DNA from: an uncultured Syntrophomonadaceae bacterium
GTDB lineage: Bacteria; Bacillota; Dethiobacteria; DTU022
NCBI GenBank assembly: GCA_964420065.1
Contig: CAYQQK010000007.1
Location: 5,462-69,461, forward strand
Direction of reading: 5' to 3'
DNA length: 64,000 nucleotides
Both the position numbers and the translations under genes were made by a program. Each line of letters opens with the position of its first letter. The first letter of the stretch is position 1. The notes beneath the pieces are model-generated. The model saw only the letters and a program-made list of their open reading frames with translations. It searched no databases and was not told the DNA's origin. Below are positions 1 to 56,128 of the stretch, one piece after another.

Positions 1-1157
1 AAAAATTCGTGTTTGACCAGCGCCCAAACTTTGCGGGCCTGAAGGTAATAGCGCGCGTAATATTCCTGGCTCAGGAGGACGGTGCCGAAAACACTGTGGC
101 GAATTCCTTCTTCGCCCAGGGAGGCGGCCCGGGTTTCGCGGTACCGTTGTTCCAGATCTTGTTCTTCCGAGACGGTGCCGAAGCGGATTCCATCAAAACG
201 ACTCAAATTGGAGGATGCTTCGACCATGGCGATCACGTAATAGGCTTGCAGCGCTTCGCGGAATAAGGGCAGGGTAATTTCCACCGGTTCGATTCCCAGG
301 GCGGTGCAGGCCGCACGGGCTTGCTCCAGAACGGCCCGGACGGGCTCGTCAAGCATGGCGAAAACCTCCGTCGGAAAGCCGGCTTTGAGCTCTCCGGGCA
401 AAAAGTTCTTTCTTTCCCCGGGGGCCGGAAAACCCACCCCGGCGGCGGTTGTGGCCGGATCCCGCGGGTCGGGGCCGGCAATGGCCTGTAAACCCAAAAG
501 GGCGTCGGCGGGGTTCCGGGCCACGATTCCGGCCCGGGCAAAGGAGGGGGCGGCGCTGCACAAACCGTAACGTGAAACCAGCCCGGGGGTGGGGAGAAGG
601 CCGTACTGGCCGCAATGCGAGGCCCCGACCCGCAGCGCGCCCCCGGTATCGGAACCGAGAGCCAGGAGCGCCTGCCCCGCTGCAACGGCGGCTGCGGCGC
701 CGTCTCCGGCGACCCGGGACCGGTCCCAGGGGTTGGACGAAACGCCTGCGGCGGAGCGCACCGTGGATGAACCGAGGTCGTATTGGTCAAGGTTGGTTTT
801 ACCGAGAATGATGGCCCCGCTTGCAATAAGTTTGTGTACGGCGGCGGCGTCGCCGGGAGGCCGGAAGTCGTGCAGGGCGGCGCTGCCGCAGGTTACCGGC
901 CCGTCCCGGTAATAGAAGTTGTCTTTGACCACGACGGGTACGCCGGCCAGGGGCAGATCCAGACCCCGTTTAATTTTTTCATCCACCGCTCCGGCCTGGT
1001 CCAACGCCGAATCTGCAAATATCCGGGTCAAGGTATTGAGCGCTTCATTGGCGTCGTTGCACCGGGCCAGGTAGATCCCGGTCAGTTCCCGGGCGGTTAT
1101 CCTTCCTGAACGAACGGCTGCGGCTGTTTCAGCAGCGGTCAAATGGACCGGATCCAC
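1..1157 (-). CDS. gatA: GatA-like amidase-signature protein (Asp/Glu-tRNA amidotransferase subunit A homolog), 3' end outside the window; catalytic serines absent
   Basis: Not in the ORF track; translated by hand from GTG at 1157 (SD GGAGGAG at 1164-1170): MDPVHLTAAETAAAVRSG...PLAGVPVVVKDN...GKTNLDQYDLGSST...NPWDRSRVAGDGAAAAVAAG...LGSDTGGALR...YYVIAMVEASSNLSRFDGIRFG...YYLQARKV. Open to position 3. Lies directly downstream of gatC. Confidence 0.85.
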   Translation of the reverse strand, partial: MDPVHLTAAETAAAVRSGRITARELTGIYLARCNDANEALNTLTRIFADSALDQAGAVDEKIKRGLDLPLAGVPVVVKDNFYYRDGPVTCGSAALHDFRPPGDAAAVHKLIASGAIILGKTNLDQYDLGSSTVRSAAGVSSNPWDRSRVAGDGAAAAVAAGQALLALGSDTGGALRVGASHCGQYGLLPTPGLVSRYGLCSAAPSFARAGIVARNPADALLGLQAIAGPDPRDPATTAAGVGFPAPGERKNFLPGELKAGFPTEVFAMLDEPVRAVLEQARAACTALGIEPVEITLPLFREALQAYYVIAMVEASSNLSRFDGIRFGTVSEEQDLEQRYRETRAASLGEEGIRHSVFGTVLLSQEYYARYYLQARKVWALVKHEF

Positions 1158-1175
1158 GGCATCTCTCCTCCCGTT

Positions 1176-1460
1176 TTACTCGATAATAACCGGGACACGG
1201 TAAAAGCCCCCGGCAAAGTGTGTTCCGGAATGCTCCAGCCGGCCGGCTTCGATGTCAACCGGCTCGTCCTTGCGAAAAACATTAACCGCTTCATGGCCGT
1301 AGATGAGGGGTTCGGTTCCGTCCGGATCCACGGCCAGTAACGGTTCCAGCCATCGTTTAAACCCGGCCAGTTCCCGGACCAGCCGGTCTTCCGCGGCGCC
1401 GTTCAGCCCGATCATGATCGCTGCGGCAGCGCGCCGGATCGTCTCCCGCTCATTTTGCAT
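1176..1460 (-). CDS. gatC: GatC-like amidotransferase subunit C
   Basis: 94 aa; TEPL..HEAVNVFRKDEP and C-terminal GGFYRVPVIIE resemble GatC (VEP..H....NV.RED; FxVPxI); immediately upstream of the gatA-like gene. Confidence 0.75.
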   Translation of the reverse strand: MQNERETIRRAAAAIMIGLNGAAEDRLVRELAGFKRWLEPLLAVDPDGTEPLIYGHEAVNVFRKDEPVDIEAGRLEHSGTHFAGGFYRVPVIIE

Positions 1461-1558
1461 CGCAATCCCTCTTTTCTTGCACGATTCTTCCCATAGTATA
1501 GCATAATTATAAAAAGTTCATGGGCAAATATGTTATATTATGTGAGGGGTTCCGTGTC

Positions 1559-4500
1559 ATGATCACACTCATCTATTCGAATCAAACCGAACGCCTGCTC
1601 CGGGAATTGGCCCGGGATATCCGGGAATGGCGTGAAAACGGAGCACACCCGCTCGAACCGGTCGAGCTGGTGGTACCCAACCGGAATATGGAAACATGGC
1701 TCACCCTGGGCCTGGCCCAGTCGGCCGGGGTGGCCGCCAACTTGCGCTTCAACTGGCTCAACCGTTTTATCGGCGATCTGGTTGCCCGGGTCCGCCCCGG
1801 GGAGATGAAACTGGTCGACCTGGATACCGCCGAGGCGGCTGTTTTGGCGGTGTTGATGGATGAGGTGCTGCTCAAAACACCGGCCCTGCAGCCGGTGCAC
1901 CGCTACCTGTACGGTACCCGAACCGGAACAGGGGAAGGGACAGCGGTGGCAGGCGATCTCAAATGTCCGGCTCCTTGTAGCGGGTTTGACGCCTACCTGA
2001 CCCCGGATGGCGTCGATCTGCGCCGGGTCCAGCTGGCCGCCCGCCTCGCTTTTCTCTTTCAAGAGTACACCTTCTCCCGACCGGAAATGATTGCCACCTG
2101 GCGGGAAAACGGCGCTACAAAATTACCCGACGGTTGCGCCGGGCTGCCCTTTGCCGACCCGGTGCTGTTCGATCCGTCAGTTGAGGTAATCGTAACCTGG
2201 CAACGTGCTCTCTGGCGCGCCGTCTTCGGTCGCGACGGTGTTCTTGCCCGGCACCCTCCCCGGGAAGGAGGGCGTTGGGTGACCATGGATCTCCTGCTCC
2301 ACGACAGCGCTTTTTTCCAAAGTCTCGGCCGGAGCAAGCCGCCGCCGGTTCATCTTTTCGGGATTTCATACATGGCCCGCATCTTCCAACATTTCCTGGC
2401 GCGGTTGGGGGAGGTCATGACATTGCGCCTCTACAGCCTTAACCCTTGCGCCGAATTCTGGGAGGATGTCGAAACCCACCGGGAATTTTATCTTCGCCTT
2501 GATCAGGAACAAAACCGGCGTGAACGACGAGTTTGGCGGGGAGTGGGCGAGGGCGAAACAGTGGAAGATCCGTTCGGCCTTTTTGCCAAGGATACCACGG
2601 CGCTCCATTACTGGGGCCGTCCCGGCCGCGAAAATGTCCGCCTGCTCGGCGAATTGACAGATTGCGATTTTACCGGCGCTTTCGAACATCCTTCTGCTGT
2701 GACAGGCGGGCTTTTGCAGCGGCTGCAACTGGATGTGCTTTTGCGCGAACCGGAACGGAACGTCGACCGGGAAGAGGGTGCGGCAGAACCCGGGGCGGCA
2801 ACGGCCCCGACGGCGGATGAAACGATTCAACTCGTGGCGGCACCGTCGGTGCGCCGCGAAGTGGAGTGGGTGGCCGACGAAATCTGGAAATTGATGCGCG
2901 ATGAGGGGAACGAACCGCCTCTCCGGTTCAGCGATGTGGCGATTATCGTCAACAGTGCCGGAAAGGAGCTTTACCTGCCCGTGATCGAGACCGTTTTTGG
3001 CTCCTGCTGCGATCTGCCGTGCAGTATTTCCGATCTCCCCGGGGCCTCGGGCAGCCGGATCATCGAGGCCATGAACCTGCTTTTAAAACTGCCTTTCGGC
3101 CGTTTTTCACGGGCCGAAATGCTGGCGCTGCTGGGACATCCGGCGGTCGCCGGCGGTTTGGAAGATCTTACGCCCGCTGATTTGGCCGTCTTGGCCGAAA
3201 GACTGGGGATCGTCCATGGCGCCGATCACGGCGATCATGCCGGCACCTATATCAACGAAGATGTCTACAATTGGGACCAGGGCCTGCGGCGACTTGCTCT
3301 CGGCGCCTTCATGACCGGCGAAAAAAGCGGTGATGAACGTATATTGACCACTGCTCGGGGCAGATGGCTGGTCGAGGAAGTTTCCGGATCGGCGGCGCCG
3401 GCGACGGCGCATTTCGGGTTGATGGTGCGATCGCTTTTGGCCGATGCCCGTTTCGTGCGCCGGCAGCAGATGACCCTGGCCGGCTGGGCCAGTTTTTATA
3501 CGGCTCAGGTCGAAAACTACTTTCATGTGGCCGGCGGTGCCGATGAACGGGATCGCCTGCAACTGCTCCGTGCTCTCGGCAGGCTGGAGAAGATGGATCT
3601 GGGGCAGAAGGTGAGCGGCCGTATTGCAGCCGCGATTGCCGGCCGGGCAATTGATTCCCTGGGCGGCGGCCGGGGTCAGTACCTCACCGAGGGGGTGGTC
3701 GTTTCAACCTTTTTGCCGATGCGGGCGATTCCATTCCGTGTTGTTTTTTTGCTCGGGCTCGGGGAAGGGCTTTTCCCGGCCTCGGCTCAGCGGGACGCCC
3801 TTGATCTGCGTGCGGTACGGCGTCGGGCCGGGGATGTCGATCCGGCTGAACGGGACCGCTACATGTTCCTGGAAACGCTGCTCTGCACCCGGGAAAGATT
3901 TTACCTATCCTATGTCAGCAGGGACGAACATACCGGCGAACCGCTGCAGCCCTCGGCGGTGGTCCAGGAGCTGCTGCATATCATCCAGTTGAACTACCTT
4001 GGGCGGGAGGGGATCAGGCCGTTGCGTGCGGGACCCCCCGTACCGCTGCGCCGTTACGATATAGCGTCAACGCGGGGTGAAACGTTTTTCGATGAAGCGC
4101 GGGTGGAAGCGCGGCTGGCGGAGATTGCCCGGGCCCGGGATGCCGGGAGGAACGGTTACGGGGAAGAGGGGGAAGGGTGGGAAGATCGGGATGGTCGGGA
4201 TCGGCTGGGCCGGCGGTTGATGCGCTTTTTGAACAGGATCAACCCGGAACATCGCATCAATCTTTCGGCGATGCTCGCTTTACCCGGGGAACCGCCCCCG
4301 ACCGCCGCGGTTGATGCAACCGCTCGGTTAACCGGCGCCGGCAGATCCGGCGGAACCGAGGGGGCAAAGGTGATCGAAGCGCCGCGCCCGCTGGCGCTTC
4401 CTGTTTTACAGCGTTTTTTGGAATGCCCGCTGCAGGGCTGGGCGGCGGCGCTGCTCGGGTTAACCGCGGTTGAAGAAGATCCGGCTGACCGGGAAGAAGA

Positions 4501-5416
4501 GGACTTTGAAATAAACCCGCTTACAGAAACAGTGCTTTTAAGCGATGTTTTTTATGCGGCGGCGGCCGGAGGAGAATGCCCGGAAAAATTGTACGCAGAA
4601 CAGTTGTTGCGCCTGCGCCTGGCCGGGCGGATTCCGGCCGGTGCTTTCAGCGAAGCGATCCGGGCACGGCACCGGCGTATCATCGCCGGCTGGCGATCGC
4701 TTTTAAAAAAAGTGCAAAACTGTGCCGGCGGCGACGGGCCGCCCCGCCTCCTCCGCTACCGGCTGGGGCGTTCCGTCCGTCCCGTCCCGGCCGTGCGTGT
4801 TCTCGATCCGCTGCGCCTGGAAGTGGCCCCGGGCGAGTCGGAAAACCGGGACCGGAGCATCGTTCCGCTGATTTTAAACGGGCTTACCGAAGGGCTACTG
4901 AACGAAAACGGTGATGTCACCGCGGTCGTGATTCGAGCCCGGAAACCGCCCCGGAGCGATCACACAGAAACATGGGCCGGACAGTTTCGTTACCTGTTGC
5001 GGGGCGCGGTTACCCTGGCCGCCCTGAGTGCTGCGAACGTTGCCCGGGACGGAGCCCGGCAAATCGCGGTTCTTTACTCTGACGGTGATCATACCGGCGG
5101 ATTGCGGCTCCGGTTGCGCCCGCAACAACCGGAGCAGGCTCGCCATTGGCTGACCGCGATTGCGGAAGAGTTGCTGGCCGGCCCGCATGCTTACCTGCTC
5201 CCCTGCGAGGCCGTTTTCACCGCATATGATTCCGGTGCCGATCTGTGCGCTGAAATCGAAAAAATGGCCGGCGACGAATGGGTTCGTTTCTCCAGTTTGT
5301 GGGGCCCGGTTTCTTCACCGCGCCTTTACGCTCCGCCGGCGGCGGCGGTCAAACAGATGGCCGAGCGGCGTTTTGGCCCGTTTTTGAGAGAAATCCTGAG
5401 CCGGGAGGTATTCTGA
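1559..5416 (+). CDS. recC: Exodeoxyribonuclease V subunit gamma (RecC)
   Basis: N-terminal LIYSNQTERL, LVVPNRNMETWL, STFLPMRAIPFRVVFLLGL, DRYMFLETLL..RERFYLSYV, LQRFLECP; likely start ATG 1559 after GAGGGG; its stop overlaps the recB ATG. Confidence 0.9.
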   Translation: MITLIYSNQTERLLRELARDIREWRENGAHPLEPVELVVPNRNMETWLTLGLAQSAGVAANLRFNWLNRFIGDLVARVRPGEMKLVDLDTAEAAVLAVLMDEVLLKTPALQPVHRYLYGTRTGTGEGTAVAGDLKCPAPCSGFDAYLTPDGVDLRRVQLAARLAFLFQEYTFSRPEMIATWRENGATKLPDGCAGLPFADPVLFDPSVEVIVTWQRALWRAVFGRDGVLARHPPREGGRWVTMDLLLHDSAFFQSLGRSKPPPVHLFGISYMARIFQHFLARLGEVMTLRLYSLNPCAEFWEDVETHREFYLRLDQEQNRRERRVWRGVGEGETVEDPFGLFAKDTTALHYWGRPGRENVRLLGELTDCDFTGAFEHPSAVTGGLLQRLQLDVLLREPERNVDREEGAAEPGAATAPTADETIQLVAAPSVRREVEWVADEIWKLMRDEGNEPPLRFSDVAIIVNSAGKELYLPVIETVFGSCCDLPCSISDLPGASGSRIIEAMNLLLKLPFGRFSRAEMLALLGHPAVAGGLEDLTPADLAVLAERLGIVHGADHGDHAGTYINEDVYNWDQGLRRLALGAFMTGEKSGDERILTTARGRWLVEEVSGSAAPATAHFGLMVRSLLADARFVRRQQMTLAGWASFYTAQVENYFHVAGGADERDRLQLLRALGRLEKMDLGQKVSGRIAAAIAGRAIDSLGGGRGQYLTEGVVVSTFLPMRAIPFRVVFLLGLGEGLFPASAQRDALDLRAVRRRAGDVDPAERDRYMFLETLLCTRERFYLSYVSRDEHTGEPLQPSAVVQELLHIIQLNYLGREGIRPLRAGPPVPLRRYDIASTRGETFFDEARVEARLAEIARARDAGRNGYGEEGEGWEDRDGRDRLGRRLMRFLNRINPEHRINLSAMLALPGEPPPTAAVDATARLTGAGRSGGTEGAKVIEAPRPLALPVLQRFLECPLQGWAAALLGLTAVEEDPADREEEDFEINPLTETVLLSDVFYAAAAGGECPEKLYAEQLLRLRLAGRIPAGAFSEAIRARHRRIIAGWRSLLKKVQNCAGGDGPPRLLRYRLGRSVRPVPAVRVLDPLRLEVAPGESENRDRSIVPLILNGLTEGLLNENGDVTAVVIRARKPPRSDHTETWAGQFRYLLRGAVTLAALSAANVARDGARQIAVLYSDGDHTGGLRLRLRPQQPEQARHWLTAIAEELLAGPHAYLLPCEAVFTAYDSGADLCAEIEKMAGDEWVRFSSLWGPVSSPRLYAPPAAAVKQMAERRFGPFLREILSREVF

Positions 5417-8400
5417 TGGGCACTACTTACTACCCCCGGCCGGAAATCCTGGCCGGGGCTACGCACCGGTCGGGGCACATGGTGATCGAGGCGTCGGCCG
5501 GTACCGGCAAAACTTTTACCCTCGAGCACCTCGTGCTCGATCTGATCATCGGCAGGCAGGCCGGGATCGAGCAGATCCTTGTCGTTACTTTTACCGATGC
5601 GGCCACGCATGAATTGCGCGAGCGCATCCGAACCTTGATCCGGGCTGTCTGCGATTCCGGTGTAGGGGAGCTGGAATCCGGTGCGGATAGCAGTCGCTAC
5701 TGGGAGATCAACCGGGCTACCCGGGGCCGCTTGCGCGAAGCCCTGTTTCGTTTTGATGGGGCCGCGATCGCGACGATTCACGGTTTTTGTCAGCGCATTC
5801 TGTCCGAACAGGCGTTTCTTGGGGGGCGATTGTTCCGGCAAGAACATGCGCATGGTCGGGAAATGTTCGGGCAGGCTTTTCGGGAGGAGGTCCGCCGGAC
5901 CCTGGGTCAAGAAAACCCGGCCGGAGCCGCTCTACGGCGCTGGATCGATCAGGAACGTTCCCTGCAAAAAGTTCAGGATTTGCTTTACCGCTGCCATCGG
6001 GAGGGCTGCCCGGAACGTTGCCCGGTGACCCCGCAGTGCGACCCGGAGGGGTTTCTTGATGCCATGGGCAGGCTACCCCGTCTGGAAGCATTGTTGCACG
6101 CAGCAGAAGATTACTTCGCGGATCGCCATTCCAGGCGGGGTTATCAAAAGCTGTTTCGCGGCCTGTTTGCTCTTGCCGGCATGATCGAGTCCGGTCCGGC
6201 TCTCTTTGAAACGGTGCCGCCGTTCCTGGAATGGGTGGTCGAAGATTGCGGGATCAACTCGGTTCAACAAACCCGGTTGAACCACGTTCATTGTGCCGCG
6301 GCGAGCGCCGGGGCGCCGCCGGAATTCAAGGCACTGGCTGCCTGCCTCGATCGAATGATCTTGCGGGCGGTTTCCGAGCCTGCTTGTTTTATCCACCGGT
6401 TGCTGCCGCGTGTGCAGGCGCGCCTCGACCTGCGCAAACGTGCTCTTGGTTTGATTGATTACGATGACATGCTCCTCGGGGTTCGGGAAGCGTTGGCGGG
6501 CGAAAATGCCCCGGTCCTGCTTGATGTGCTCAGGAGACGCTGGAAGTATGCCCTGGTTGATGAATTTCAGGATACAGATCCGGTTCAGTGGGAAATTTTC
6601 AGGCGGATTTTTGTCGACGGTGCAGGGGAACAGCGCCTTTTCATTATCGGTGACCCCAAACAGGCCATTTACGGCTTTCGAGGCGCAGATGTTCATACCT
6701 ACCGCACGGCCCGGGATCACCTGCTGACGAAACAGGGGACCGTCCGGTTGCCGCTGATCAAAAACTACCGATCCACCCCGGCGCTGATCCAAGCGGTGAA
6801 CGCAATTCTGACCGCAGCGGACGGCACCGGATCCGGTTTCTTTGACGGTCCCAACCGTTACGATCTACCGGTGCAGTGTGGTGACACCACCCGGGGCGCC
6901 ATCGAAAACGGGAAAGCGGCGGTCCCGGTGCATCTGGTCCATCTTTACGGTGTCGGGGCCCCCTTGAAGGCCGCTCTGCTCAGGCGGGGTCTGGCCAACT
7001 TTATTGCCCAGGAAATACAACGCTTGACGGATCCGCAAACCGGTCTGGCCACGATGCGGCGCGGGGGGGCGCCCGTGCCGGTCAAGCACAGCGATATTTA
7101 TATTCTCACCCGTTCCGGCTGGGAAGGTCGCCGGATCGGTGCGGTCCTGCGCCGTTACGGCATTCCCCATGCCTTCTACAAATTGGACGGTCTTTTTGCC
7201 ACCGACGAAGCCCGGGATATCCACCGTTTGCTCCTGGCGATCGACGCGCCGCAGGATCCTTCATTACGGATGGCGGCCTGGTTGACCCCCTTCTTTGGGG
7301 TGCCGCTGGAGGATCTGCCGCGTTGGCAGGATGCCGCTGCGCACCATCCGTTACCGGCGCGGTTGCTGCGTTGGAACCGGCTTGCCGCCGCCCGGGAGTG
7401 GGCCCGTCTCTTTGATGATATCCTGAACACATCCGGCCTGATCCGGCGTCTTATTTTCGCCGGCGGCGAGCGCGAGCTGACCAACTATATTCACCTGTTT
7501 GAGCTGCTCCTGGCCGAAGTGTATACCCACCCGATTTCGGTGACTGAATTGGCCCGTGGGCTCAAAGCACGCATCGACGGCCGGGATATGCCCGAGGGGC
7601 GTGAGGGGGACCTGCAACGGCTGGAGACGGAAAAGGATGCGGTGCAAATTTTAACCATGCACAAGGCCAAGGGTCTTGAGGCGGAAGTGGTTTTTGTTGG
7701 GGGAGGGTTCAGCAACCCGCCCGGCGATCCCCTCCAGGTTAACATTTACCACCGCAACCGCCGGCGCTGCCTGCACCTCGGCCGGGCCGGCGGGGAGATC
7801 GCTGCGGCGATCGAGGCGGAAACACGCCAGGAAAACCAGCGCCTGGCCTATGTGGCTCTGACCCGGGCCGGCGCGCGGCTTTACCTGCCTTATTTTGGCC
7901 CGGCCCCCGCCGGTTGCAACGCGGATGATAAAAGTTTCGTTTTTTGTAAACTCGGGGACTTTTACCGGCCCTTGCAAAAACAGCTTGATCGTTTGTGCGA
8001 TCAGGGGCGGCTCGGTGTCGGGCAGCTTTTTATGCGGCGCGAAGCACCGTGCCGGGTACGTTTCCCGCATGAACGCAGTGTCCCGTCCGGTCCGGAAGAT
8101 TGGCTGGGAAAATACCTGCCCTGGGAACCTCCGACCAAAACGGCCGAAGCCGTAAAGATTAAAACACGGCGCCGGGGGGTGATCCTGACCAGTTATACCC
8201 GGATCAAACAGGGGCGGGGCTGGCAGCCTTTCGACTCCGGCGAAGACGGGGGAGGTGACCGGCGCAATGAAGAGGTGGCCGGTGAGGTTTCGGACGCTCT
8301 TGTCCTTCCGGACCCGGGTTCAATTGAACCGGCCGCCCCGGAAAATTTCCCCGGGTTGCCCGGCGGCCGGGAAAACGGTATATTTTTACATGCTCTCCTC

Positions 8401-9171
8401 GAGGAAATCACGGCCGCGGAAATAGCGGGACAAAGTTTTGCTGAATGGTCGGCGCAGGCGGCATTGCGGGCGCGGGCCGCAGCCATCGCCAGGCGGCACG
8501 GGTTTCCTGAAATCTGTCTGCCGGTTGCCCTGAAGCTGGTTTACCGTGCCTTCCGGACGCCGCTTCGGGTGCAAAACCGGGAAGGTGGTTTCACCCTCGA
8601 TCTGCCGGAGGGGATCGCCTCCGGCGAGCACCTGCGGGCCGAGATGCCCTTCGTTTTCCCCATTCCGGAATATTTTCATCCGCTCCTGGGTGAAGGGAAA
8701 AAGGAGTCCGGGCCGGGCATCAATCCGGATCGTTTTCCCTTTCAGGCCCGGCGCGGCTACATCCGGGGTTTAATCGATCTTGTTTTTGAACATCGCCAGC
8801 AAATATATTTGCTCGATTGGAAAAGTGACAGTCTGGCTTCTTTCGAGGCGGACCGGGTCCGGGAGCACGTTGAAGCCAATTACCGTCTCCAGGTGCAGTT
8901 TTACCTGCTGGCCGTGGTTCGCCTGCTCGGCCTCGGGTCAAGAGAAGAATATGACTTGCGTTTCGGTGGGGTGCTCTACTTTTTTTTGCGGGGCCTCACC
9001 GGGGAAGCCGGGCGGCCGGCCACGGGTGTCTGGTTCTCACGCCCGCCCTGGGAACGGGTGGTTTTTCTGGAACAGGAATTGCTCAAACGTCAGGAATGGG
9101 GTGGCGCGGTAATTGCCGCTACGGAAGAGACGGCGCCGGAAGGAGGGCGGGCGCGGTGCAGGCAAATTTGA
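5416..9171 (+). CDS. recB: Exodeoxyribonuclease V subunit beta (RecB), UvrD-type helicase plus C-terminal nuclease
   Basis: Walker A IEASAGTGKT, LVVTFT, LVDEFQDTD, IGDPKQAIYGFRGAD, LTMHKAKGLE, YVALTRA; nuclease motif GLIDLVF...LLDWKS; ATG 5416 overlaps the recC TGA. Confidence 0.95.
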   Translation: MGTTYYPRPEILAGATHRSGHMVIEASAGTGKTFTLEHLVLDLIIGRQAGIEQILVVTFTDAATHELRERIRTLIRAVCDSGVGELESGADSSRYWEINRATRGRLREALFRFDGAAIATIHGFCQRILSEQAFLGGRLFRQEHAHGREMFGQAFREEVRRTLGQENPAGAALRRWIDQERSLQKVQDLLYRCHREGCPERCPVTPQCDPEGFLDAMGRLPRLEALLHAAEDYFADRHSRRGYQKLFRGLFALAGMIESGPALFETVPPFLEWVVEDCGINSVQQTRLNHVHCAAASAGAPPEFKALAACLDRMILRAVSEPACFIHRLLPRVQARLDLRKRALGLIDYDDMLLGVREALAGENAPVLLDVLRRRWKYALVDEFQDTDPVQWEIFRRIFVDGAGEQRLFIIGDPKQAIYGFRGADVHTYRTARDHLLTKQGTVRLPLIKNYRSTPALIQAVNAILTAADGTGSGFFDGPNRYDLPVQCGDTTRGAIENGKAAVPVHLVHLYGVGAPLKAALLRRGLANFIAQEIQRLTDPQTGLATMRRGGAPVPVKHSDIYILTRSGWEGRRIGAVLRRYGIPHAFYKLDGLFATDEARDIHRLLLAIDAPQDPSLRMAAWLTPFFGVPLEDLPRWQDAAAHHPLPARLLRWNRLAAAREWARLFDDILNTSGLIRRLIFAGGERELTNYIHLFELLLAEVYTHPISVTELARGLKARIDGRDMPEGREGDLQRLETEKDAVQILTMHKAKGLEAEVVFVGGGFSNPPGDPLQVNIYHRNRRRCLHLGRAGGEIAAAIEAETRQENQRLAYVALTRAGARLYLPYFGPAPAGCNADDKSFVFCKLGDFYRPLQKQLDRLCDQGRLGVGQLFMRREAPCRVRFPHERSVPSGPEDWLGKYLPWEPPTKTAEAVKIKTRRRGVILTSYTRIKQGRGWQPFDSGEDGGGDRRNEEVAGEVSDALVLPDPGSIEPAAPENFPGLPGGRENGIFLHALLEEITAAEIAGQSFAEWSAQAALRARAAAIARRHGFPEICLPVALKLVYRAFRTPLRVQNREGGFTLDLPEGIASGEHLRAEMPFVFPIPEYFHPLLGEGKKESGPGINPDRFPFQARRGYIRGLIDLVFEHRQQIYLLDWKSDSLASFEADRVREHVEANYRLQVQFYLLAVVRLLGLGSREEYDLRFGGVLYFFLRGLTGEAGRPATGVWFSRPPWERVVFLEQELLKRQEWGGAVIAATEETAPEGGRARCRQI

Positions 9172-11189
9172 ACTGGAACCCGCTTGGCTGCGGTTCCTTG
9201 CACGACAATGAACCCGATTATCCGGGTGACCTGGTTCCCCGTTTGAAACCGTTCGATCTAGATCGCGGCGATCTCTACCTGGCCTGGGAGCTGACCCGCC
9301 TCGCCGGCACGGCCCTGAAACCGGCGCAGGTCCGGGCGGTAATTTTGCTGGTACTGGTGCTTCGCCTGCTGGCCGCCGAGGGAAGCACACGCCTGCCGCT
9401 TGTCCCCGGCGGAGTGCTTGCAGAGATCCTTGCCGCATTTCCGATCACCGTGGAGGAAAGGGCCGCGATAGAAGAGCTGTTCACAGCGCTCCGGCAGGGA
9501 GCCGGACCGGCCGATCTGTTCGGCGGGCCGGAAGATTACCGACCATTGATCATCGATCAAGGTTATCTCTATATCCAAAAACTGCATGTTTTGGAGGCCC
9601 GTGTTGGTCGGGCGCTGCAGGCACGTATTGCCGATGACGCAGCGGATGGGCAATCGGAGCAGGACTTTGAAGGGGCTTTGCAAGAGGTGTGCGATAATCC
9701 GCCCGAAAGTGAAGCGGGGCGCTTTGAACTGGATCCCGAACAAATTGAAGCGGTCCGAACGGCATTGTGCGGTCGGATTGCCATTGTCAGCGGGCAGCCG
9801 GGGAGCGGTAAAACATCCATTGTCGCCGCCCTGCTCCGGGTGTTGGCCCGGGTGGGACGCCCGCCGCTGGAAGCGATCGCGCTTACGGCGCCGACCGGAA
9901 AAGCCGCCGACCGGATGCGCCGGGCTATCACCGGGCATCTGGACGCCATCCCCGTTCTCGCCCCGGCCGACCGCCGGCTGGCCGAAGCCGGCCCGCCGGC
10001 CTTGACCCTGCATCGTTTGCTGGACTATTCGCCCGGCCGGGACTGTTTTTGTTATGATCAGGACAACCCGCTTTCGGAGCAACTGATTATCGTCGACGAA
10101 AGTTCGATGCTCGACCTGGCGATGACCGATCACCTGCTGCGCGCCCTGCAACCGGCCGCACGGGTAATTTTTTTGGGCGATGCCGATCAGTTGCCCCCGA
10201 TCGGAACCGGTGCGGTTTTGAGGGATCTGTGCCGTTCAGAAGCGGCCGCCCGGCGCAGCCGGGCGGTGGTGTTGCAAAAGAGCTATCGCGCCCGGAAGGA
10301 GGATCCCGGCGGCAAGATGATCCTCGACGCCGCTACGGCGATCAATGCCGGCCGGATGCCGCTTGGCACCGCTGACGGTTGCGCGCCGCCGTGTCGGAAA
10401 GCCGGTTCGCTGCGGTTTACCGGGGTCGAGCATCTTGAGGTGGATGCACCGGCGGAGCTGGCGGCATTTCTAGTGCGGTGGCACGAATTCTTCCACCACG
10501 CCCTCCCCGGGCTAGGCGCGTGCCTGCACCGTGAATATTTTTCGGGTCCGGAAGGTTTTGATGCTGAAACCAGCGCCGCCCTGCGGATTGTCATGGAACA
10601 TTACGAGAAGTTTCGCCTCCTCTGTGTGACCCGGGTTAGCGCCGGCGGAACCGGATCGGAAGCCGTCAACGCCTGGTTTCGCCGTTACCGGCGTGAAGAA
10701 ACGAAAGCTGCGAGCCGGACCGCCGCCCCGAATTTCTTATTTCCGGTCGGTGAGCCGGTCTTGGTCACGCAAAATGATTACCGGCTTCGCCTTTTCAACG
10801 GCGACTCGGGCCTGGTGCTGACGGTGAGGGCGTCAACTGAAACCGGGCCCGGAGACGCGGTTTCCATGGCTGTATTTGCCCGGGGCGGCGGCTATGTCGC
10901 CTATTCCCCGGAGGCGCTGCGCGGTAAATTGGAGCCGGCCTGGGCGACGACCGTGCACAAAGCGCAGGGTTCGGAATATGATCATGTGGCCATATTATTA
11001 CCCGGGGTACCGGTGCGGCCGTTAACGCGCGAGTTGCTTTACACGGCCGTCACCCGCGCCAGGAAGTCGGTTGTTTTTGTCGGCACGTACGGGATGATCA
11101 GGGCTGGCATAAAGGCGAAAACGGAACGCTTTTCCGGCCTGGCCGGCATGCTCTGCCAGGCTGGCTGCGCCGGTGAAAAAAAACCTTGA
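9156..11189 (+). CDS. recD: Exodeoxyribonuclease V subunit alpha (RecD)
   Basis: GQPGSGKT, APTGKAADR, TLHRLL, IVDESSMLD, LGDADQLPPI, ATTVHKAQGSEY, LYTAVTRAR; GTG 9156 after AGGAGG (9141-9146). Confidence 0.9.
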   Translation: MQANLNWNPLGCGSLHDNEPDYPGDLVPRLKPFDLDRGDLYLAWELTRLAGTALKPAQVRAVILLVLVLRLLAAEGSTRLPLVPGGVLAEILAAFPITVEERAAIEELFTALRQGAGPADLFGGPEDYRPLIIDQGYLYIQKLHVLEARVGRALQARIADDAADGQSEQDFEGALQEVCDNPPESEAGRFELDPEQIEAVRTALCGRIAIVSGQPGSGKTSIVAALLRVLARVGRPPLEAIALTAPTGKAADRMRRAITGHLDAIPVLAPADRRLAEAGPPALTLHRLLDYSPGRDCFCYDQDNPLSEQLIIVDESSMLDLAMTDHLLRALQPAARVIFLGDADQLPPIGTGAVLRDLCRSEAAARRSRAVVLQKSYRARKEDPGGKMILDAATAINAGRMPLGTADGCAPPCRKAGSLRFTGVEHLEVDAPAELAAFLVRWHEFFHHALPGLGACLHREYFSGPEGFDAETSAALRIVMEHYEKFRLLCVTRVSAGGTGSEAVNAWFRRYRREETKAASRTAAPNFLFPVGEPVLVTQNDYRLRLFNGDSGLVLTVRASTETGPGDAVSMAVFARGGGYVAYSPEALRGKLEPAWATTVHKAQGSEYDHVAILLPGVPVRPLTRELLYTAVTRARKSVVFVGTYGMIRAGIKAKTERFSGLAGMLCQAGCAGEKKP

Positions 11190-11318: not shown

Positions 11319-12416
11319 ATGAGAGTGGCCCTGCTGTACAGCTCCAAAATAGGCATGAAAGCGGCTTTGTTGCGCCGTCGGGAGAAAGTTGCGGACGAAG
11401 ACAGCGAACCCCCGCCCGACCTGCTGGCCGAGTGTGACAACGACGCTACGATCGCGGCTGTCGGGCGGGTTCTTGAAGAACAACACCGGGTCTACTATAT
11501 CGAATCCGATGAACGGGCCTATACCCGCTTGCGACGGCTTTGCCCGGATCTCGTCTTCAACATTTCCGAACGCCTTTTTGGACCAAACCGCGAATCACAT
11601 ATTCCTACCATCTGCGAAATTCTTGGGTTACCTTACACCGGTTCCGACCCCCTGACTTTGGGTATTTGCCTGGATAAATCCCGGGCCAAGGAAATTCTGA
11701 GCCATTACGGTATCCCCAACCCGTCGTTTACCGTGGTCGAGGACCCGGCCTACGTTCCGGCCCACTTTCCGTTGCCGGCTATCGTCAAGCCGCTTTACGA
11801 AGGATCGAGCAAGGGGATCACGAACGATTCCGTCGTTCGTTCGTGGGAAGCACTGCTTGACAAAACTGCAGCCACCATCCGGGCATACCGGCAACCGGTG
11901 ATCATTGAACGGTTTTTTTCCGGAAGAGAATTTACAGCCGGTGTTCTGGGCAACTATCCGGATTATGAGATCCTGCCGGTTGTCGAAATTGACTACAGCG
12001 GGCTTCCGACCGGGGTTGAGCCGGTCTACTCCTACGAGGCGAAATGGATCTGGGATACACCCGACCGGCCCCTTGAAATTTTCCGGTGCCCCGCAGTCGT
12101 AACGGACCGGCTTGAGAAAAAGATCCGTGAAGTCGTGCGTCGGACGTGCACCCTGCTGCGAATCAGGGACTGGTGCCGCGTCGATCTCCGGCTTGACCAT
12201 GCCGGTGATCCGAATGTGCTCGAGGTCAATCCTTTACCGGGTATTTTACCCCGTCCGGAGGATAATTCCTGCCTTCCCAAGGCCGCCGCTGCGGCCGGTT
12301 ATACCTACCGGGATCTCATCTGCCGGGTGGTGGACGAGGCGATGAAACGTTGTGGAGAACGACAGGCTGCAGAACGAACCTGGACCGCCATGCTTGTTAC
12401 AGGCCGGGCAAAATGA
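11319..12416 (+). CDS. D-Ala-D-Ala-ligase-like ATP-grasp peptide ligase of unknown substrate
   Basis: PYTGSD...LDK, IVKPLYEGSSKGI, ERFFSGREFT, YSYEAK, RVDLR, LEVNPLPG; lacks the Ddl N-terminal GGxSxEH motif. Confidence 0.85.
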   Translation: MRVALLYSSKIGMKAALLRRREKVADEDSEPPPDLLAECDNDATIAAVGRVLEEQHRVYYIESDERAYTRLRRLCPDLVFNISERLFGPNRESHIPTICEILGLPYTGSDPLTLGICLDKSRAKEILSHYGIPNPSFTVVEDPAYVPAHFPLPAIVKPLYEGSSKGITNDSVVRSWEALLDKTAATIRAYRQPVIIERFFSGREFTAGVLGNYPDYEILPVVEIDYSGLPTGVEPVYSYEAKWIWDTPDRPLEIFRCPAVVTDRLEKKIREVVRRTCTLLRIRDWCRVDLRLDHAGDPNVLEVNPLPGILPRPEDNSCLPKAAAAAGYTYRDLICRVVDEAMKRCGERQAAERTWTAMLVTGRAK

Positions 12417-12517
12417 GACGGAAGGGTCGTTGCCGCATCGCATCCAGTTTAACCGGTACCCGGGGTGGGGCCGATCCCTGAACCCAGTACTTTCTGGTCA
12501 AAAGGAGTAGGGAAGAA

Positions 12518-13633
12518 ATGGATGACTGGCAGAAGTTACTGCGGGGTTGTCTGCGGAAACCCGAAGCAATTGCCTTGCGTTTCGGACTTGAAGTTGACGA
12601 GGTGCGTCGGATTACGGCTGTATTCAGGGCCGGTATTTCACCGTACTACGCCGCTTTGATCAAAGCCAAGGACGATCCGATCTGGCGGCAGGTAGTGCCG
12701 GACCCGGCCGAGTTGCACGCATGTTCCGGCGAAGCCGATCCTCTTTCTGAAGATGAGGATTCGCCGGTACCGGGTATCGTGCACCGTTATCCCGACCGGG
12801 TTTTATTCATGGTGTCGCACAGTTGTGCTTCCTATTGCCGGTTTTGCACCCGGAAAAGGAAAGTCGGCGATCCGTCGAAGGTGCATCTCCGCGACATTGA
12901 AGCGGGGATCGGTTACATCAAAAGTCATAAAGAAATACGCGATGTTTTGCTTTCGGGCGGTGATCCGCTCATGTTAAGCAACGCCAAAATTGAGCGAATT
13001 CTGATCAGCCTGCGTTCCATACCCCATGTTGAAATTATCCGGATTGGCACACGTATGCCCTGCTTTTTGCCGCACCGGATTACTGAAAAACTGGCCGCGA
13101 TACTCAAAAAGTACCACCCGCTCTATGTAAACGTTCATTTCAACCATCCGGATGAAATCACGCCCGCTTCCGCCCGGGCGCTCAACCTGCTGGCCGATTC
13201 CGGCATCCCCCTCGGCAACCAGACCGTCCTGCTCAAGGGGGTCAACGATGATCCGCCGGTAATGCGCCGGCTCATGCAAAAACTGCTGACAGTCAGGGTG
13301 AAGCCGTATTATATTTACCAGGCCGATCACGTCGCCGGGACGGAACATCTGCGCACGACCGTGGAGAAAGGGATCGCGATCATGGAAAATTTACGCGGCT
13401 GGACATCGGGCCTGGCTGTGCCGCATTACTGCATCGATGCGCCCGGGGGGGGCGGCAAGATTCCTCTTCTGCCGCAGTATGTCCAATCGATCGATCATGA
13501 AAAAGTGATTTTGCGCAATTATGCCGGAGATACTTTCACCTATCCTCAGGTGCGCCGCCGCCCGGAACCGGCGTGGCGAAACCGACCCGGGGCCTGCATC
13601 ATGACGGAGCAGCCGGCCCCCCGGCAGGCCTGA
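12518..13633 (+). CDS. kamA: KamA-family radical SAM/PLP enzyme (lysine 2,3-aminomutase-like)
   Basis: HRYPDR, CASYCRFCTRK (CxxxCxxC), LLSGGDPL, NQTVLLKGVND, YIYQAD, IDAPGGGGKIP (PLP lysine). Confidence 0.9.
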   Translation: MDDWQKLLRGCLRKPEAIALRFGLEVDEVRRITAVFRAGISPYYAALIKAKDDPIWRQVVPDPAELHACSGEADPLSEDEDSPVPGIVHRYPDRVLFMVSHSCASYCRFCTRKRKVGDPSKVHLRDIEAGIGYIKSHKEIRDVLLSGGDPLMLSNAKIERILISLRSIPHVEIIRIGTRMPCFLPHRITEKLAAILKKYHPLYVNVHFNHPDEITPASARALNLLADSGIPLGNQTVLLKGVNDDPPVMRRLMQKLLTVRVKPYYIYQADHVAGTEHLRTTVEKGIAIMENLRGWTSGLAVPHYCIDAPGGGGKIPLLPQYVQSIDHEKVILRNYAGDTFTYPQVRRRPEPAWRNRPGACIMTEQPAPRQA

Positions 13634-13668
13634 AGGCGAGGGTTCCGCCTTTTAATTCCTGCAATCCG

Positions 13669-13698
13669 AAGCTCGGACCTAAGACATCCGGGCTTTTT
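13669..13698 (+). terminator. Rho-independent terminator after kamA
   Basis: Stem AAGCTCGGA / TCCGGGCTT (one G-U pair), 9-nt loop, followed by a T run. Confidence 0.6.
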
Positions 13699-13829
13699 CA
13701 TGCTTCCGTCCCGGTTCAAACTTGATCGGATCATGCGCGGTACGTTATTCTGAATATGGTTTCGCCGGAAAAAGGAAACAGGTACAATTTGTAACGGCGT
13801 TTTTTTGTAAACGGAGGGAGACCGAAAAG

Positions 13830-15173
13830 GTGAGACTGGATCTGGTGTTAAAGAACGGTATTGTTGTCTCCCCGGGACGCAACGTGCAAATAGATATCGC
13901 GGTTAAAGAGGGCAAGATCGTCGCCCTGGGCCGGTCGGAAGAATTTTGTGACGCCGCCCAAACGCTTGATGTGACGGGGAAATATATTCTGCCCGGTGTT
14001 ATCGATGTGCACTGCCACTTTCGCGACCCGGGGTTAACGCACAAAGAAGATTTTTTGAGCGGCACCCGCGCCGCGGCCATGGGTGGAGTGACCACGGTCT
14101 TTGATATGCCCAACACGATCCCCCCGGTTACAAACTTGATCGCGCTGCACCAAAAAATGAAGGCAATCAAAAATCGGGCGTATGTTGATTATTGCTTATG
14201 GGGTGCGGTGACGAGCAACGACCCGGTACAAATTGATAATCTGGCCGGCCTGGGTGTTATCGGTTTCAAGATATTTCTGGCCCAAACCACTGGAGACCTG
14301 GCCGCCCCCGGTGACGGGGCTCTTCTGGAGGTGTTTGGGCGTATTCGGGCAACCGGTTTAAGGGCTGCTCTCCACGCTGAGGACGAAGGTTATATCAATT
14401 ATTTTACCCGTAAATTTCAAAAAGAAGGGTGCCGGAATTACGAAGCCGTGGAAACGGCGCGGGATGCGACGGCGGAAGCGCTGGCCATTGCTCGCGTGCT
14501 GGTTTTAGCGCACCGGTCCGGCAACAAGATCCATATTGCCCACCTGAGCACCCGCGAAGGAGCTGAACTGGTCAAACTGGCCCGCGAGAAGGGGATCGAT
14601 GTCAGCGCCGAGACCTGCCCGCAGTACCTGCTTTTAAAAAATGATGATTATGCGCGCCTGGGGCAGGTGGCGAAAATGTTTCCCCCGTTGCGCCGGGCCG
14701 GCGATATGGAGGCCCTTTGGGCGGCGATTGCCGATGGTGTGGTCGAGGTTATCGCTTCGGATCATGCGCCGCACACCCGGCAGGAAAAACTTGGCACCGT
14801 AGATATCTGGGATGTTCCGGCCGGCATGATCGGCGTCGAAACGAGCGTGCCCCTGATGCTCGAACAGGTAAACCGGGGGCGGTTGACCCTGAACGAGTAT
14901 GTACGCATTGCTTGTGAAAAACCGGCCCGGTTGTTCAACCTTTATCCCCGTAAAGGGACGATCGGGGCCGGCGCCGATGCTGATTTTACCATAATCGATC
15001 TCAACCAAACGTATGAAATTAAAGCGACCCGCCTTCACTCCAAGTCCAGGTTCACACCCTTTGAGGGTATAACAGGCAAAGGTTTCCCGGTCTATACGAT
15101 TGTCAGAGGCAACGTGGTGATGGCACATGGGCGGCTGCTTACCGAGCCGTCCGGCCTTTTCGTCAGCCCGTAA
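13830..15173 (+). CDS. Cyclic amidohydrolase, dihydroorotase/allantoinase family
   Basis: PGVIDVHCHFRDPG, AAMGGVTTVFDMPNT, GFKIFL (carbamylated Lys position), HAED, HIAHLST, ETCPQYL, ASDHAPH; GTG 13830 after GGAGGGA. Confidence 0.8.
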   Translation: MRLDLVLKNGIVVSPGRNVQIDIAVKEGKIVALGRSEEFCDAAQTLDVTGKYILPGVIDVHCHFRDPGLTHKEDFLSGTRAAAMGGVTTVFDMPNTIPPVTNLIALHQKMKAIKNRAYVDYCLWGAVTSNDPVQIDNLAGLGVIGFKIFLAQTTGDLAAPGDGALLEVFGRIRATGLRAALHAEDEGYINYFTRKFQKEGCRNYEAVETARDATAEALAIARVLVLAHRSGNKIHIAHLSTREGAELVKLAREKGIDVSAETCPQYLLLKNDDYARLGQVAKMFPPLRRAGDMEALWAAIADGVVEVIASDHAPHTRQEKLGTVDIWDVPAGMIGVETSVPLMLEQVNRGRLTLNEYVRIACEKPARLFNLYPRKGTIGAGADADFTIIDLNQTYEIKATRLHSKSRFTPFEGITGKGFPVYTIVRGNVVMAHGRLLTEPSGLFVSP

Positions 15174-21719: not shown

Positions 21720-21828
21720 GGGACGGTTCTTGCGGATGGTTAAAATAATTCTATAACGGTTGCCATTGGCAACTTCAACAATTTGATAACATTGGGGATT
21801 TGATATTTCACCGCAAGAACCGTCCCCT
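21718..21828. repeat. REPIN/MITE-like element: perfect 18-bp terminal inverted repeat with AT-rich core
   Basis: AGGGGACGGTTCTTGCGG (21718-21735) and CCGCAAGAACCGTCCCCT (21811-21828); 75-nt spacer with 23 G+C (about 31%) containing the palindrome GTTGCCA-T-TGGCAAC. Confidence 0.85.
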
Positions 21829-24043: not shown

Positions 24044-24069
24044 GAGAACTGGCTCCCTGCAAAACCGGC

Positions 24070-56021: not shown

Positions 56022-56128
56022 TCAACACGGTATTCCTTCCAGGTGAGTCGATAAAGCGGCCGTTCAAGGAAGAAAAAAGTTTTTGGGGTAACGTATGGGC
56101 GTGGTTTGGAGATCAAGGAGGTAGCAAA

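What the first reader, a model, noticed from the sequence alone, without database searches (positions are those of the whole stretch)
1..1157. GatA homolog missing two of three Ser-cisSer-Lys catalytic residues
Seen: the Lys (VVKDN) is kept, but the PGGSSGGS segment is reduced to RVAGDGAAAAV (684-716, no Ser) and GSDTGGSIR reads GSDTGGALR (nucleophile Ser to Ala, codon 638-636). The frame is intact, has a good SD and sits next to gatC. Established: both serines are needed for GatA glutaminase activity. Inference: a catalytically dead GatA kept as a scaffold or ammonia tunnel for an NH3-using GatCAB, or a regulatory pseudo-amidase.
Basis: partly seen in the sequence, partly recalled or inferred. 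Interest (0 to 1): 0.7.

Follow-up and report, generated by a model that had tools for sequence, protein, structure and literature searches.

The report
GatCAB operon with dead glutaminase subunit
This bacterium's tRNA amidotransferase operon (gatC-gatA-gatB) encodes a GatA that has lost its glutamine-splitting active site yet is conserved by selection across a whole clade of anaerobic Bacillota, so the enzyme most likely makes Gln-tRNA and Asn-tRNA from free ammonia instead of glutamine.

Summary
The minus-strand ORF 1157..1 is the first 385 of 481 residues of a GatA homologue. It keeps Lys78. A 3-residue deletion (PGGSSGGS becomes AG---DGA) removes the cis-Ser loop, and Ala174 replaces the nucleophile Ser.

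It is not a pseudogene. About 50 protein clusters share the same deletion. All nine distinct family loci inspected have the order gatC-gatA*-gatB, in differing neighbourhoods. dN/dS is 0.20, and the predicted fold matches GatA (TM 0.90-0.91).

GatB, just outside the window, is canonical and much more conserved than GatA* (identity gap +17 points, against -5 in normal operons).

The cultured Desulfolucanica intricata carries a canonical gatCAB followed in tandem by a second gatCAB. Its GatA separately shows the same deletion, Gly-to-Asp and Ser-to-Ala changes. This points to a recurrent, selected state.

Best reading (inferred, not assayed): an ammonia-dependent GatCAB in which dead GatA is kept as scaffold and tunnel.

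I could not test whether this genome also has a canonical gatCAB. No description was found in the literature searched. I rate it a new variant of a known kind.

The parts
1..1157 (-). gatA* : N-terminal 385 of 481 codons of a GatA homologue with a degenerate Ser-cisSer-Lys site. The gene runs off the window start. The full protein is P0001 (L001 10001-11446).
   Evidence: TIGR00132 379.7 bits for the full length, against a cut-off of 481.1
924..926 (-). Codon of Lys78, the retained counterpart of the catalytic Lys (S. aureus Lys79)
   Evidence: Lys in 44 of 51 clade sequences
684..716 (-). RVAGDGAAAAV: remnant of the PGGSSGGSAAAV loop. A 3-residue deletion lies between Gly151 and Asp152, removing the cis-Ser and its neighbouring Ser. 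Gly is replaced by Asp152.
   Evidence: the deletion is present in all 51 clade sequences tabulated
636..638 (-). Codon of Ala174, in place of the nucleophile Ser (S. aureus Ser178)
   Evidence: clade: Ala 30, Ser 13, other 8
624..626 (-). Codon of Gly178. Canonical GatA has Pro here (SIRQPA; 169 of 169). The clade has Gly in 22 of 22.
537..539 (-). Codon of Ala207, in place of the Asp of the canonical SSLDQ motif (97% Asp in canonical GatA; 0 of the 22 clade sequences)
96..98 (-). Codon of His354. It aligns by the E-x-x-x-R spacing with the Arg that holds the carboxylate of bound glutamine in solved GatA (yeast R334). Arg is kept in at least 90% of the clade but not in this protein.
   Evidence: PMC4027206; the mapping is my inference
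1165..1172 (-). Shine-Dalgarno-like GGGAGGAG, 7 nt upstream of the GTG start of gatA*
   Evidence: read directly from the sequence
1176..1460 (-). gatC-like gene (94 aa), first gene of the gatC-gatA*-gatB operon
1461..1519 (.). 59-bp AT-rich divergent intergenic region between gatC and recC. It is the presumed promoter region. The consensus scan found no sigma-70 match, and an Rfam scan of L001, which holds the same DNA, found no RNA family.

Best explanation
The window holds the start of a gatC-gatA*-gatB operon. Its A subunit is a glutaminase-dead pseudoenzyme, while its B subunit (tRNA-dependent kinase/transamidase) is fully intact. I propose that the GatC-GatA*-GatB complex still converts Glu-tRNA(Gln) and/or Asp-tRNA(Asn) into Gln-tRNA and Asn-tRNA, but takes free NH3/NH4+ from the cytoplasm instead of making it from glutamine. 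GatA* would be kept because GatB needs the GatA-GatC partner for assembly and stability, and possibly because the vestigial pocket and tunnel still deliver ammonia. The 3-residue loop deletion would open the former glutamine pocket, and Asp152 would compensate the now unpaired Lys78. The pay-off would be one ATP saved per amidation (no glutamine synthetase step) and translation uncoupled from the glutamine pool. That would be useful for energy-limited anaerobes in ammonia-rich or alkaline habitats.

Shown: loss of the catalytic residues; retention of frame, fold, operon and purifying selection; strong constraint on GatB; recurrence in a second lineage.

Inferred: complex formation, use of ammonia, the role of Asp152, and the energetic rationale.
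For: The active site is lost.

The full-length ORF is intact, and gatB follows with its canonical motifs. GatB passes three NCBIfam GatB equivalog cut-offs (647.5 bits against 338).

All nine distinct clade loci inspected have gatC-gatA*-gatB. The flanking genes differ between loci, except in three related loci that share synteny.

dN/dS for gatA* is 0.20 at dS 0.70, against 0.07 for gatB.

Relative-rate test: identity(GatB) minus identity(GatA) is +17.3 +/- 3.4 points in 36 clade pairs. It is -5.3 +/- 4.9 in 946 canonical operon pairs.

The clade keeps 74 of 122 canonical conserved GatA columns and 76 of 86 GatB columns. The losses cluster in the signature loop, the nucleophile segment, SSLDQ and the C-terminal substrate-pocket motif.

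The AlphaFold model has pLDDT 85 and pTM 0.88, and its best structural matches are GatA chains of GatCAB (TM 0.90-0.91).

Parallel evolution: D. intricata GatA2 is 76% identical to its canonical tandem neighbour GatA1. It carries the same deletion, Gly-to-Asp, Ser-to-Ala and Pro loss. Seven of its 9 departures from the canonical consensus fall on columns lost in the clade (P = 0.003). dN/dS between the two copies is 0.11.

Published data: GatFAB transamidates with 20 mM NH4Cl, bypassing the glutaminase (PMC4027206). GatA needs GatC to fold and to bind GatB (PMC2330236).

Sources include bioreactor, Mono Lake, soda-lake and digester MAGs.
Against: No activity was measured.

The Asp of SSLDQ is lost in the clade. 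From memory, I believe this residue is H. pylori GatA D185, reported as important for ammonia delivery through the tunnel. If that mapping is right, the canonical tunnel chemistry is also altered.

GatB of the clade has fixed changes in the near-invariant KEEAxDYRYFPxPDL motif, and their meaning is unknown.

Cytoplasmic NH3 may be too low for an efficient reaction.

In D. intricata the dead operon coexists with a canonical one, so the dead complex need not be the main amidotransferase. I could not check whether this genome has a canonical copy elsewhere.

The habitat link is anecdotal.
Confidence: 0.55

Rival explanations
1. Non-catalytic or regulatory complex. GatC-GatA*-GatB does not amidate tRNA in vivo. 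It would act as a sensor (for example GatA* binding Gln or Glu without hydrolysing it), as a binder or protector of mischarged tRNA, or as a modulator of a canonical GatCAB or transamidosome encoded elsewhere.
For: D. intricata keeps a canonical gatCAB right next to the dead copy. Most clade members retain the residues that anchor the amino-acid backbone of glutamine in solved GatA: Asp425 equivalent in 42 of 51, and the KRR arginines at 90% or more (PMC4027206).
Against: GatB retains its catalytic motifs and is the most constrained gene of the operon (dN/dS 0.05-0.15). That is hard to explain without catalysis. In the window's own protein both glutamine anchors are replaced: His354 inside the window and Asn422 in the full-length protein. 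This argues against glutamine sensing here.
Confidence: 0.15
2. Rebuilt active site. GatA* still liberates ammonia from an amide donor (Gln, Asn or another compound), using new catalytic residues such as the clade-specific Cys425 and Asp152 together with Lys78.
For: The clade gained near-invariant residues next to the substrate pocket: Thr-to-Cys at 425 (43 of 51), Asn-to-Ser at 429, and Gly-to-Asp at 152. Asp152 arose twice independently.
Against: None of these residues is universal. Residue 425 is Thr in P0011, the member seen on the most contigs, and in D. intricata GatA2. Residue 152 is Ser/Thr in about half the clade and Lys in L095. Lys78 is itself replaced in 7 of 51. The L095 lineage has lost all three triad residues and lacks Cys425.
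Confidence: 0.08
3. Ammonia supplied in trans. Another glutaminase or ammonia-producing protein docks on GatA*-GatB and feeds the tunnel.
For: The fixed changes in GatB and the remodelled GatA surface could reflect a new partner.
Against: No additional gene is conserved next to the operon across the different neighbourhoods.
Confidence: 0.07
4. A decaying pseudogene or an assembly/sequencing artefact.
For: Catalytic residues are lost, GatA* evolves faster than GatB, and the protein scores below the curated GatA cut-off.
Against: The ORF is intact at 481 aa, with identical sequence on an independent contig. About 50 diverged clusters share the same deletion. dN/dS is 0.15-0.28, and the fold prediction is confident.
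Confidence: 0.02

Closest known systems
Canonical bacterial GatCAB (Glu-tRNAGln/Asp-tRNAAsn amidotransferase; structures 2DF4, 3H0L, 4WJ3)
   Same: Same three genes in the same order. GatA* has the same fold (TM 0.90-0.91). GatB passes the equivalog models and keeps its catalytic motifs. GatC is present.
   Different: GatA* lacks the cis-Ser loop and the nucleophile Ser, and other members also lack the Lys. It fails the TIGR00132 cut-off (379.7 against 481.1 bits). It evolves much faster than its GatB, the reverse of the canonical pattern. GatB carries clade-specific fixed substitutions.
Carbamoyl-phosphate synthetase I (my own knowledge): an ammonia-dependent enzyme that retains a glutaminase-like domain whose catalytic Cys is replaced
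   Same: The concept is the same. A glutamine amidotransferase turned into an ammonia-using enzyme by inactivation, not loss, of its glutaminase module, which is kept for structure or allostery.
   Different: The protein families are unrelated (class I GATase, not amidase-signature), the context is eukaryotic, and the function has been demonstrated. Here the function is only inferred.
Glutamine- versus NH3-dependent enzyme pairs (NadE with or without the nitrilase domain, AsnB versus AsnA; my own knowledge)
   Same: There are alternative glutamine- or ammonia-dependent versions of the same amidation. D. intricata would carry both versions of GatCAB side by side.
   Different: In those pairs the glutaminase part is absent or the enzymes are unrelated. 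Here the dead subunit is retained.
AtzE-AtzG (1-carboxybiuret hydrolase; PDB 6C62, described as a 'vestigial protein complex')
   Same: It is a GatA-like plus GatC-like complex that left the tRNA amidation function, and it is a structural match to the model (rank 7).
   Different: AtzE is an active amidase with an intact triad and has no GatB partner. The protein here is inactive and keeps GatB.
Other amidase-signature proteins without normal catalysis or with GatA mimicry (plant Toc64, from my own knowledge; P. aeruginosa Tse8, PDB 6TE4)
   Same: They have the amidase-signature fold and are used for binding rather than, or in addition to, hydrolysis. Tse8 appears among the sequence matches.
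   Different: They are not part of a gatCAB operon and are much more distant in sequence (68 bits against 236 bits for GatA).

Membership tests
Amidase signature superfamily (Pfam PF01425) | Significant match to the Amidase profile | tested here: met
   286 bits against a cut-off of 27, covering profile positions 1-361 of 445 in the partial protein
Amidase signature superfamily (Pfam PF01425) | Ser-cisSer-Lys catalytic triad within the Gly/Ser-rich signature | tested here: not met
   Lys78 is kept, the cis-Ser is removed by a 3-residue deletion, and the nucleophile is Ala174
GatA (NCBIfam TIGR00132 equivalog) | Score at or above the curated equivalog cut-off (481.1 bits) | tested here: not met
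   Full-length P0001 scores 379.7 bits, P0011 390.5 and L095 GatA 286.5. Canonical D. intricata GatA1 scores 660.5 and its dead GatA2 597.1. GatA is still the best-scoring family by more than 150 bits.
GatA (subunit of GatCAB) | Encoded with gatC and gatB | tested here: met
   gatC-gatA*-gatB is seen in L001 and in eight further distinct clade loci
GatA (subunit of GatCAB) | GatA three-dimensional fold | tested here: met
   The AlphaFold model has pLDDT 85.1 and pTM 0.88. The top Foldseek hits 4wj3_A, 3h0l_A and 2df4_A have TM 0.90-0.91
GatA (subunit of GatCAB) | Glutaminase activity, and physical complex with GatB and GatC | not testable with these tools
   Requires protein expression, pull-down and glutaminase/transamidase assays
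GatB (NCBIfam NF004012/NF004014/TIGR00133) | Score above the cut-off and catalytic motifs present (partner gene, just outside the window) | tested here: met
   647.5, 625.5 and 565.3 bits against cut-offs of 338, 414 and 314.8. HLEEDAGK, DYNRAGVPLIEIV and RCDANISL are present. 76 of 86 conserved columns are kept.
GatC (Pfam PF02686 / TIGR00135) | Score above the cut-off | tested here: inconclusive
   Pfam 23.9 bits against 23 (just passes). TIGR00135 35.6 bits against 47.1 (fails). Position and size (94 aa) fit GatC.
Ammonia-dependent tRNA amidotransferase (proposed functional class) | Transamidation with NH4+ but not with Gln or Asn | not testable with these tools
   Only indirect support: a dead GatA with an intact, constrained GatB, and published NH4Cl use by GatFAB (PMC4027206)

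The most novel reading that the evidence does not exclude
In this clade of anaerobic Bacillota the dead-GatA operon is the only route to Gln-tRNA and Asn-tRNA. Translation of Gln and Asn codons would then depend obligately on free ammonia rather than glutamine. The same glutaminase-less GatCAB state has evolved repeatedly (at least twice, with the same deletion and Gly-to-Asp change) as an ATP-saving adaptation of energy-limited anaerobes in ammonia-rich or alkaline habitats.
Probability: 0.3. Interest if true: 0.78.

Novelty: new variant of a known kind. Interest (0 to 1): 0.62.

Why it matters
GatCAB is described as a glutamine-dependent enzyme whose A subunit supplies ammonia through a tunnel. 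A natural, widespread and selected version with a dead A subunit would show four things.

- The glutaminase half is dispensable in some organisms.
- GatA has a structural role separable from catalysis.
- Aminoacyl-tRNA synthesis can be wired directly to the ammonia pool.
- Nature provides a 'glutaminase-off' system for studying ammonia entry and tunnel gating.

Desulfolucanica intricata is cultured and carries both versions in tandem, so the question can be tested directly.

There is also an annotation consequence. These proteins are named either 'GatA' or 'amidase family protein', and neither name says that the glutaminase site is gone.

Tried and rejected
1. Second gatA in the window: tblastn with canonical GatA queries found only the known locus.

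2. GTDB genome scan with the clade alignment. Only one clade member (L008) was recovered, so taxonomy and copy number could not be assessed. The single genome scan was then spent.

3. Metagenome scan with a loop-only alignment.

4. dN/dS from near-identical strains (L002-L004, L005/L006): there were no differences in gatA, so this was uninformative.

5. Literature. Six full-text searches found no description of a catalytically dead GatA or of a paralogous dead gatCAB. The key tunnel papers (PMC3604897, PMC2830067) and PMC23611 are not held. My mapping of the lost SSLDQ Asp onto H. pylori GatA D185 therefore rests on memory and on spacing.

6. RNA evidence: no RNA run holds the locus. No Rfam family (T-box, glutamine riboswitch or other) is present in eight operon loci.

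7. The sigma-70 consensus scan of the gatC upstream region found nothing.

8. The Lys column in the first motif tabulation was mis-anchored by my regular expression. I discarded it and redid it correctly.

9. The pseudogene or artefact reading was rejected.

Full report
**1. The observation**

The minus strand from the GTG at 1157 to base 1 is an open frame of 385 codons that runs off the window. It matches Pfam Amidase (286 bits), and its best NCBIfam family is GatA.

Residue-by-residue alignment with solved GatA chains (3h0l_A, 4wj3_A) and with canonical GatA sequences shows:
- Lys78 (VVKDN) aligns with the catalytic Lys.
- The signature loop RVPGGSSGGSAAAVA is RVAG---DGAAAAVA. A 3-residue deletion removes the cis-Ser and its neighbour and leaves Asp152.
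- GSDTGGSIR is GSDTGGALR, with Ala174 (codon 638-636) in place of the nucleophile.

In 169 canonical GatA sequences these columns are 99-100% conserved.

A Shine-Dalgarno-like GGGAGGAG precedes the start. A 94-aa gatC-like gene (1460..1176) lies directly upstream.

**2. The rest of the gene and operon**

The same sequence occurs on a 19.6-kb contig from a bioreactor metagenome (L001). There the protein is 481 aa (P0001). It is followed after 2 bases by a 481-aa gatB.

GatB has the usual motifs (GLEVH, HLEEDAGK, DYNRAGVPLIEIV, RCDANISL). It passes three NCBIfam GatB equivalog cut-offs (647.5 bits against 338).

The locus is therefore a complete gatC-gatA*-gatB operon, divergent from recC-recB-recD. 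No other gatA-like sequence exists in the 64-kb window.

**3. It is a conserved family, not a broken gene**

The first protein search gave about 22 clusters at 41-78% identity that all share the 3-residue deletion. Below these came a drop to ordinary GatA. A profile search raised this to about 50 clusters. In the 51 sequences tabulated:
- the deletion is universal;
- the nucleophile position is Ala 30, Ser 13, other 8;
- the Lys is kept in 44.

One widespread lineage (L095, the partner of GatB P0240) has lost all three triad residues (VIADN ... SDSSGITRQ).

In all nine distinct clade loci inspected the gene lies in gatC-gatA*-gatB. The flanking genes differ between loci, except that L005, L095 and L098 share synteny. 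The loci are:
- L001;
- L002-4 and L089, the same locus, which lies between ftsY and ffh-rpsP-trmD;
- L005/6, L007, L008, L091, L092, L093 and L094;
- L095-97 and L098/99.

The closest pair with unsaturated synonymous divergence (L001/L091, dS 0.70) gives dN/dS 0.20 for gatA* and 0.07 for gatB. Five more distant pairs give 0.15-0.28 for gatA*.

An AlphaFold model is confident (pLDDT 85, pTM 0.88). Its best structural matches are the GatA chains of GatCAB crystal structures (TM 0.90-0.91).

**4. Constraint has moved from A to B**

In 946 pairs of canonical operons, GatA is slightly more conserved than GatB (identity B minus A = -5.3 +/- 4.9 points). In 36 pairs of clade operons the sign is reversed and large (+17.3 +/- 3.4, minimum +8.7). 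The pairs are not phylogenetically independent, but the distributions barely overlap.

Of 122 columns that are at least 90% conserved in canonical GatA, the clade keeps 74, partly keeps 12 and loses 36. The losses include:
- the signature loop;
- Ser174;
- Pro178 (Gly in 22 of 22);
- Tyr191;
- Leu206/Asp207/Gln208 of SSLDQ;
- Thr235;
- Gly365 in SAGYYDAYY;
- Thr425 (now Cys) and Asn429 (now Ser) in the C-terminal pocket motif.

GatB keeps 76 of 86 conserved columns. It also has fixed clade-specific changes in the otherwise near-invariant KEEAxDYRYFPxPDL motif (Glu263Leu, Tyr270Cys, Asp275Glu), plus Pro297Ala.

All 107 of the top-120 GatB homologues in which the motif could be read (60-91% identity) carry DYRCF.DPEL. 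The operon type is therefore considerably more widespread than the GatA searches alone suggest.

The names attached to these proteins are:
- Bacillota bacterium;
- Dethiobacteria bacterium;
- Firmicutes bacterium ML8_F2;
- Syntrophomonadaceae bacterium (a soda-lake sediment MAG).

All are uncultured.

**5. A second, independent occurrence in a cultured organism**

The profile search also returned P0433, the annotated GatA of Desulfolucanica intricata. Its locus (L100; GCA_001592105.1) reads pcrA - ligA - gatC1-gatA1-gatB1 - gatC2-gatA2-gatB2.

GatA1 matches the canonical consensus at all 122 conserved columns. GatA2 is 76% identical to GatA1 and only about 41% identical to the clade, so it looks like a lineage-specific duplicate. 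Yet it has:
- the same 3-residue deletion;
- Gly-to-Asp (AAGDGSAAAVAAG);
- Ser-to-Ala at the nucleophile;
- loss of the Pro (RQPA becomes RRSA).

Seven of its nine departures from the consensus fall on columns lost in the clade (hypergeometric P = 0.003). The three deletion columns are one event, so the figure is somewhat generous.

The two copies are old (dS about 1.3) and both are under purifying selection (dN/dS 0.11). GatB2 keeps the canonical motif.

An ancient duplication with later homogenisation cannot be formally excluded. Either way, the same defined state is maintained by selection in two very different backgrounds, and it can coexist with a canonical operon.

Other degenerate GatA-like clusters from Firmicutes and Clostridia MAGs were seen among the 50%-identity representatives. 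I did not follow them up.

**6. Mechanism**

The amidase-signature triad is required for glutaminase chemistry (established knowledge). From memory, a nucleophile Ser-to-Ala mutant of Streptococcus pyogenes GatA abolished glutamine-dependent but not ammonia-dependent transamidation; I could not retrieve that paper.

Published work shows that a GatFAB amidotransferase transamidates with 20 mM NH4Cl when the glutaminase step is bypassed (PMC4027206). It also shows that GatA needs GatC to fold and to bind GatB (PMC2330236).

Given an intact and strongly constrained GatB, the simplest working model is an ammonia-dependent GatCAB. In it, GatA* survives as the obligatory structural partner and perhaps as the ammonia entry path.

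The twice-evolved Asp152 is plausibly a charge partner for the orphaned Lys78. In the L095 lineage Lys78 is Ala and position 152 is Lys, which fits contact between the two positions. This is inference.

A plausible advantage is saving the glutamine-synthetase ATP per Gln or Asn codon in energy-limited anaerobes living with abundant ammonia. The sampled habitats (bioreactors, digesters, soda lakes) fit, but only anecdotally.

In the window's own protein, His354 stands at one glutamine-anchoring position. In the full-length protein P0001, beyond the window's end, Asn422 stands at the other. This argues against a glutamine-sensor role here.

**7. What remains open**

- I could not test whether this genome also has a canonical gatCAB, GlnRS or AsnRS.
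- No transcript data exist for the locus.
- No regulatory RNA was found in eight operon loci.
- The loss of the SSLDQ Asp and the GatB motif changes may mean that the ammonia path itself is remodelled.

**8. Comparison and novelty**

- By sequence, fold and operon this is a GatA orthologue-derived protein.
- By the two defining criteria of an active GatA (triad; curated equivalog score, 379.7 against 481.1 bits) it fails membership.
- Functionally it resembles ammonia-dependent enzymes that keep a dead glutaminase module, such as carbamoyl-phosphate synthetase I (my knowledge). Its kinship is with GatA-derived complexes such as AtzE-AtzG (6C62).
- Six full-text searches found no description of it.

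I rate it a new variant of a known kind. It is of real interest to the aminoacyl-tRNA field and is directly testable in D. intricata.

Noticed in passing
L100 6262-12910 (Desulfolucanica intricata BCWE01000009.1): Two complete gatCAB operons lie in tandem after pcrA-ligA. The first is canonical. The second has a GatA with the same GSS deletion, Gly-to-Asp and Ser-to-Ala as the window's protein. A 203-bp spacer between gatB1 and gatC2 holds no Rfam match.
   Followed up: yes
L095 8590-9996 (also L096, L097): This is the GatA partner of a clade GatB seen on at least 24 contigs. It has lost all three triad residues (VIADN; the loop replaced by APLYLAKGG; SDSSGITRQ) but keeps the canonical Thr and Asn in the C-terminal pocket motif.
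   Followed up: partly
L001 11449-12894 (gatB just outside the window) and GatB homologues P0130-P0249: GatB of the clade carries fixed substitutions in the near-invariant KEEAxDYRYFPxPDL motif (to KLxAxDYRCFxDPEL), plus Pro297Ala. The functional meaning is unknown; it may reflect co-evolution with the dead GatA.
   Followed up: partly
window 1520-11189 (+): A recC-recB-recD-like cluster is transcribed divergently from gatC. The ORFs are 1298, about 1250 and 697 aa, with Pfam RecC_N/RecC_C, UvrD-helicase+PDDEXK and AAA_30/UvrD_C_2 on the identical genes of L001. A RecBCD-type rather than AddAB-type enzyme is less usual for Bacillota.
   Followed up: no
window 21828-26461 (-): A citrate lyase cluster: fused CitX-CitG, a GNAT-domain protein, CitF (alpha subunit) and a CitE-like HpcH/HpaI lyase.
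   Followed up: no
window 11319-15173 (+): Three adjacent genes with possible roles in amino-acid or peptide modification: a D-Ala-D-Ala ligase-like ATP-grasp, a lysine-2,3-aminomutase-like radical SAM protein, and an amidohydrolase.
   Followed up: no
window 40835-41665 (+) and 55664-56956 (-): Two sizeable ORFs (276 and 430 aa) have no Pfam match at E <= 1e-5.
   Followed up: no
proteins P0260, P0269, P0279, P0309, P0346, P0359, P0381, P0390 (representatives search): Further GatA-like clusters, mostly from Firmicutes and Clostridia MAGs, have other degenerate signature loops or non-Ser nucleophiles (for example GGASGGS with Ala, GGAAGGG with Cys, and other deletions). These are possible additional independent losses.
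   Followed up: partly
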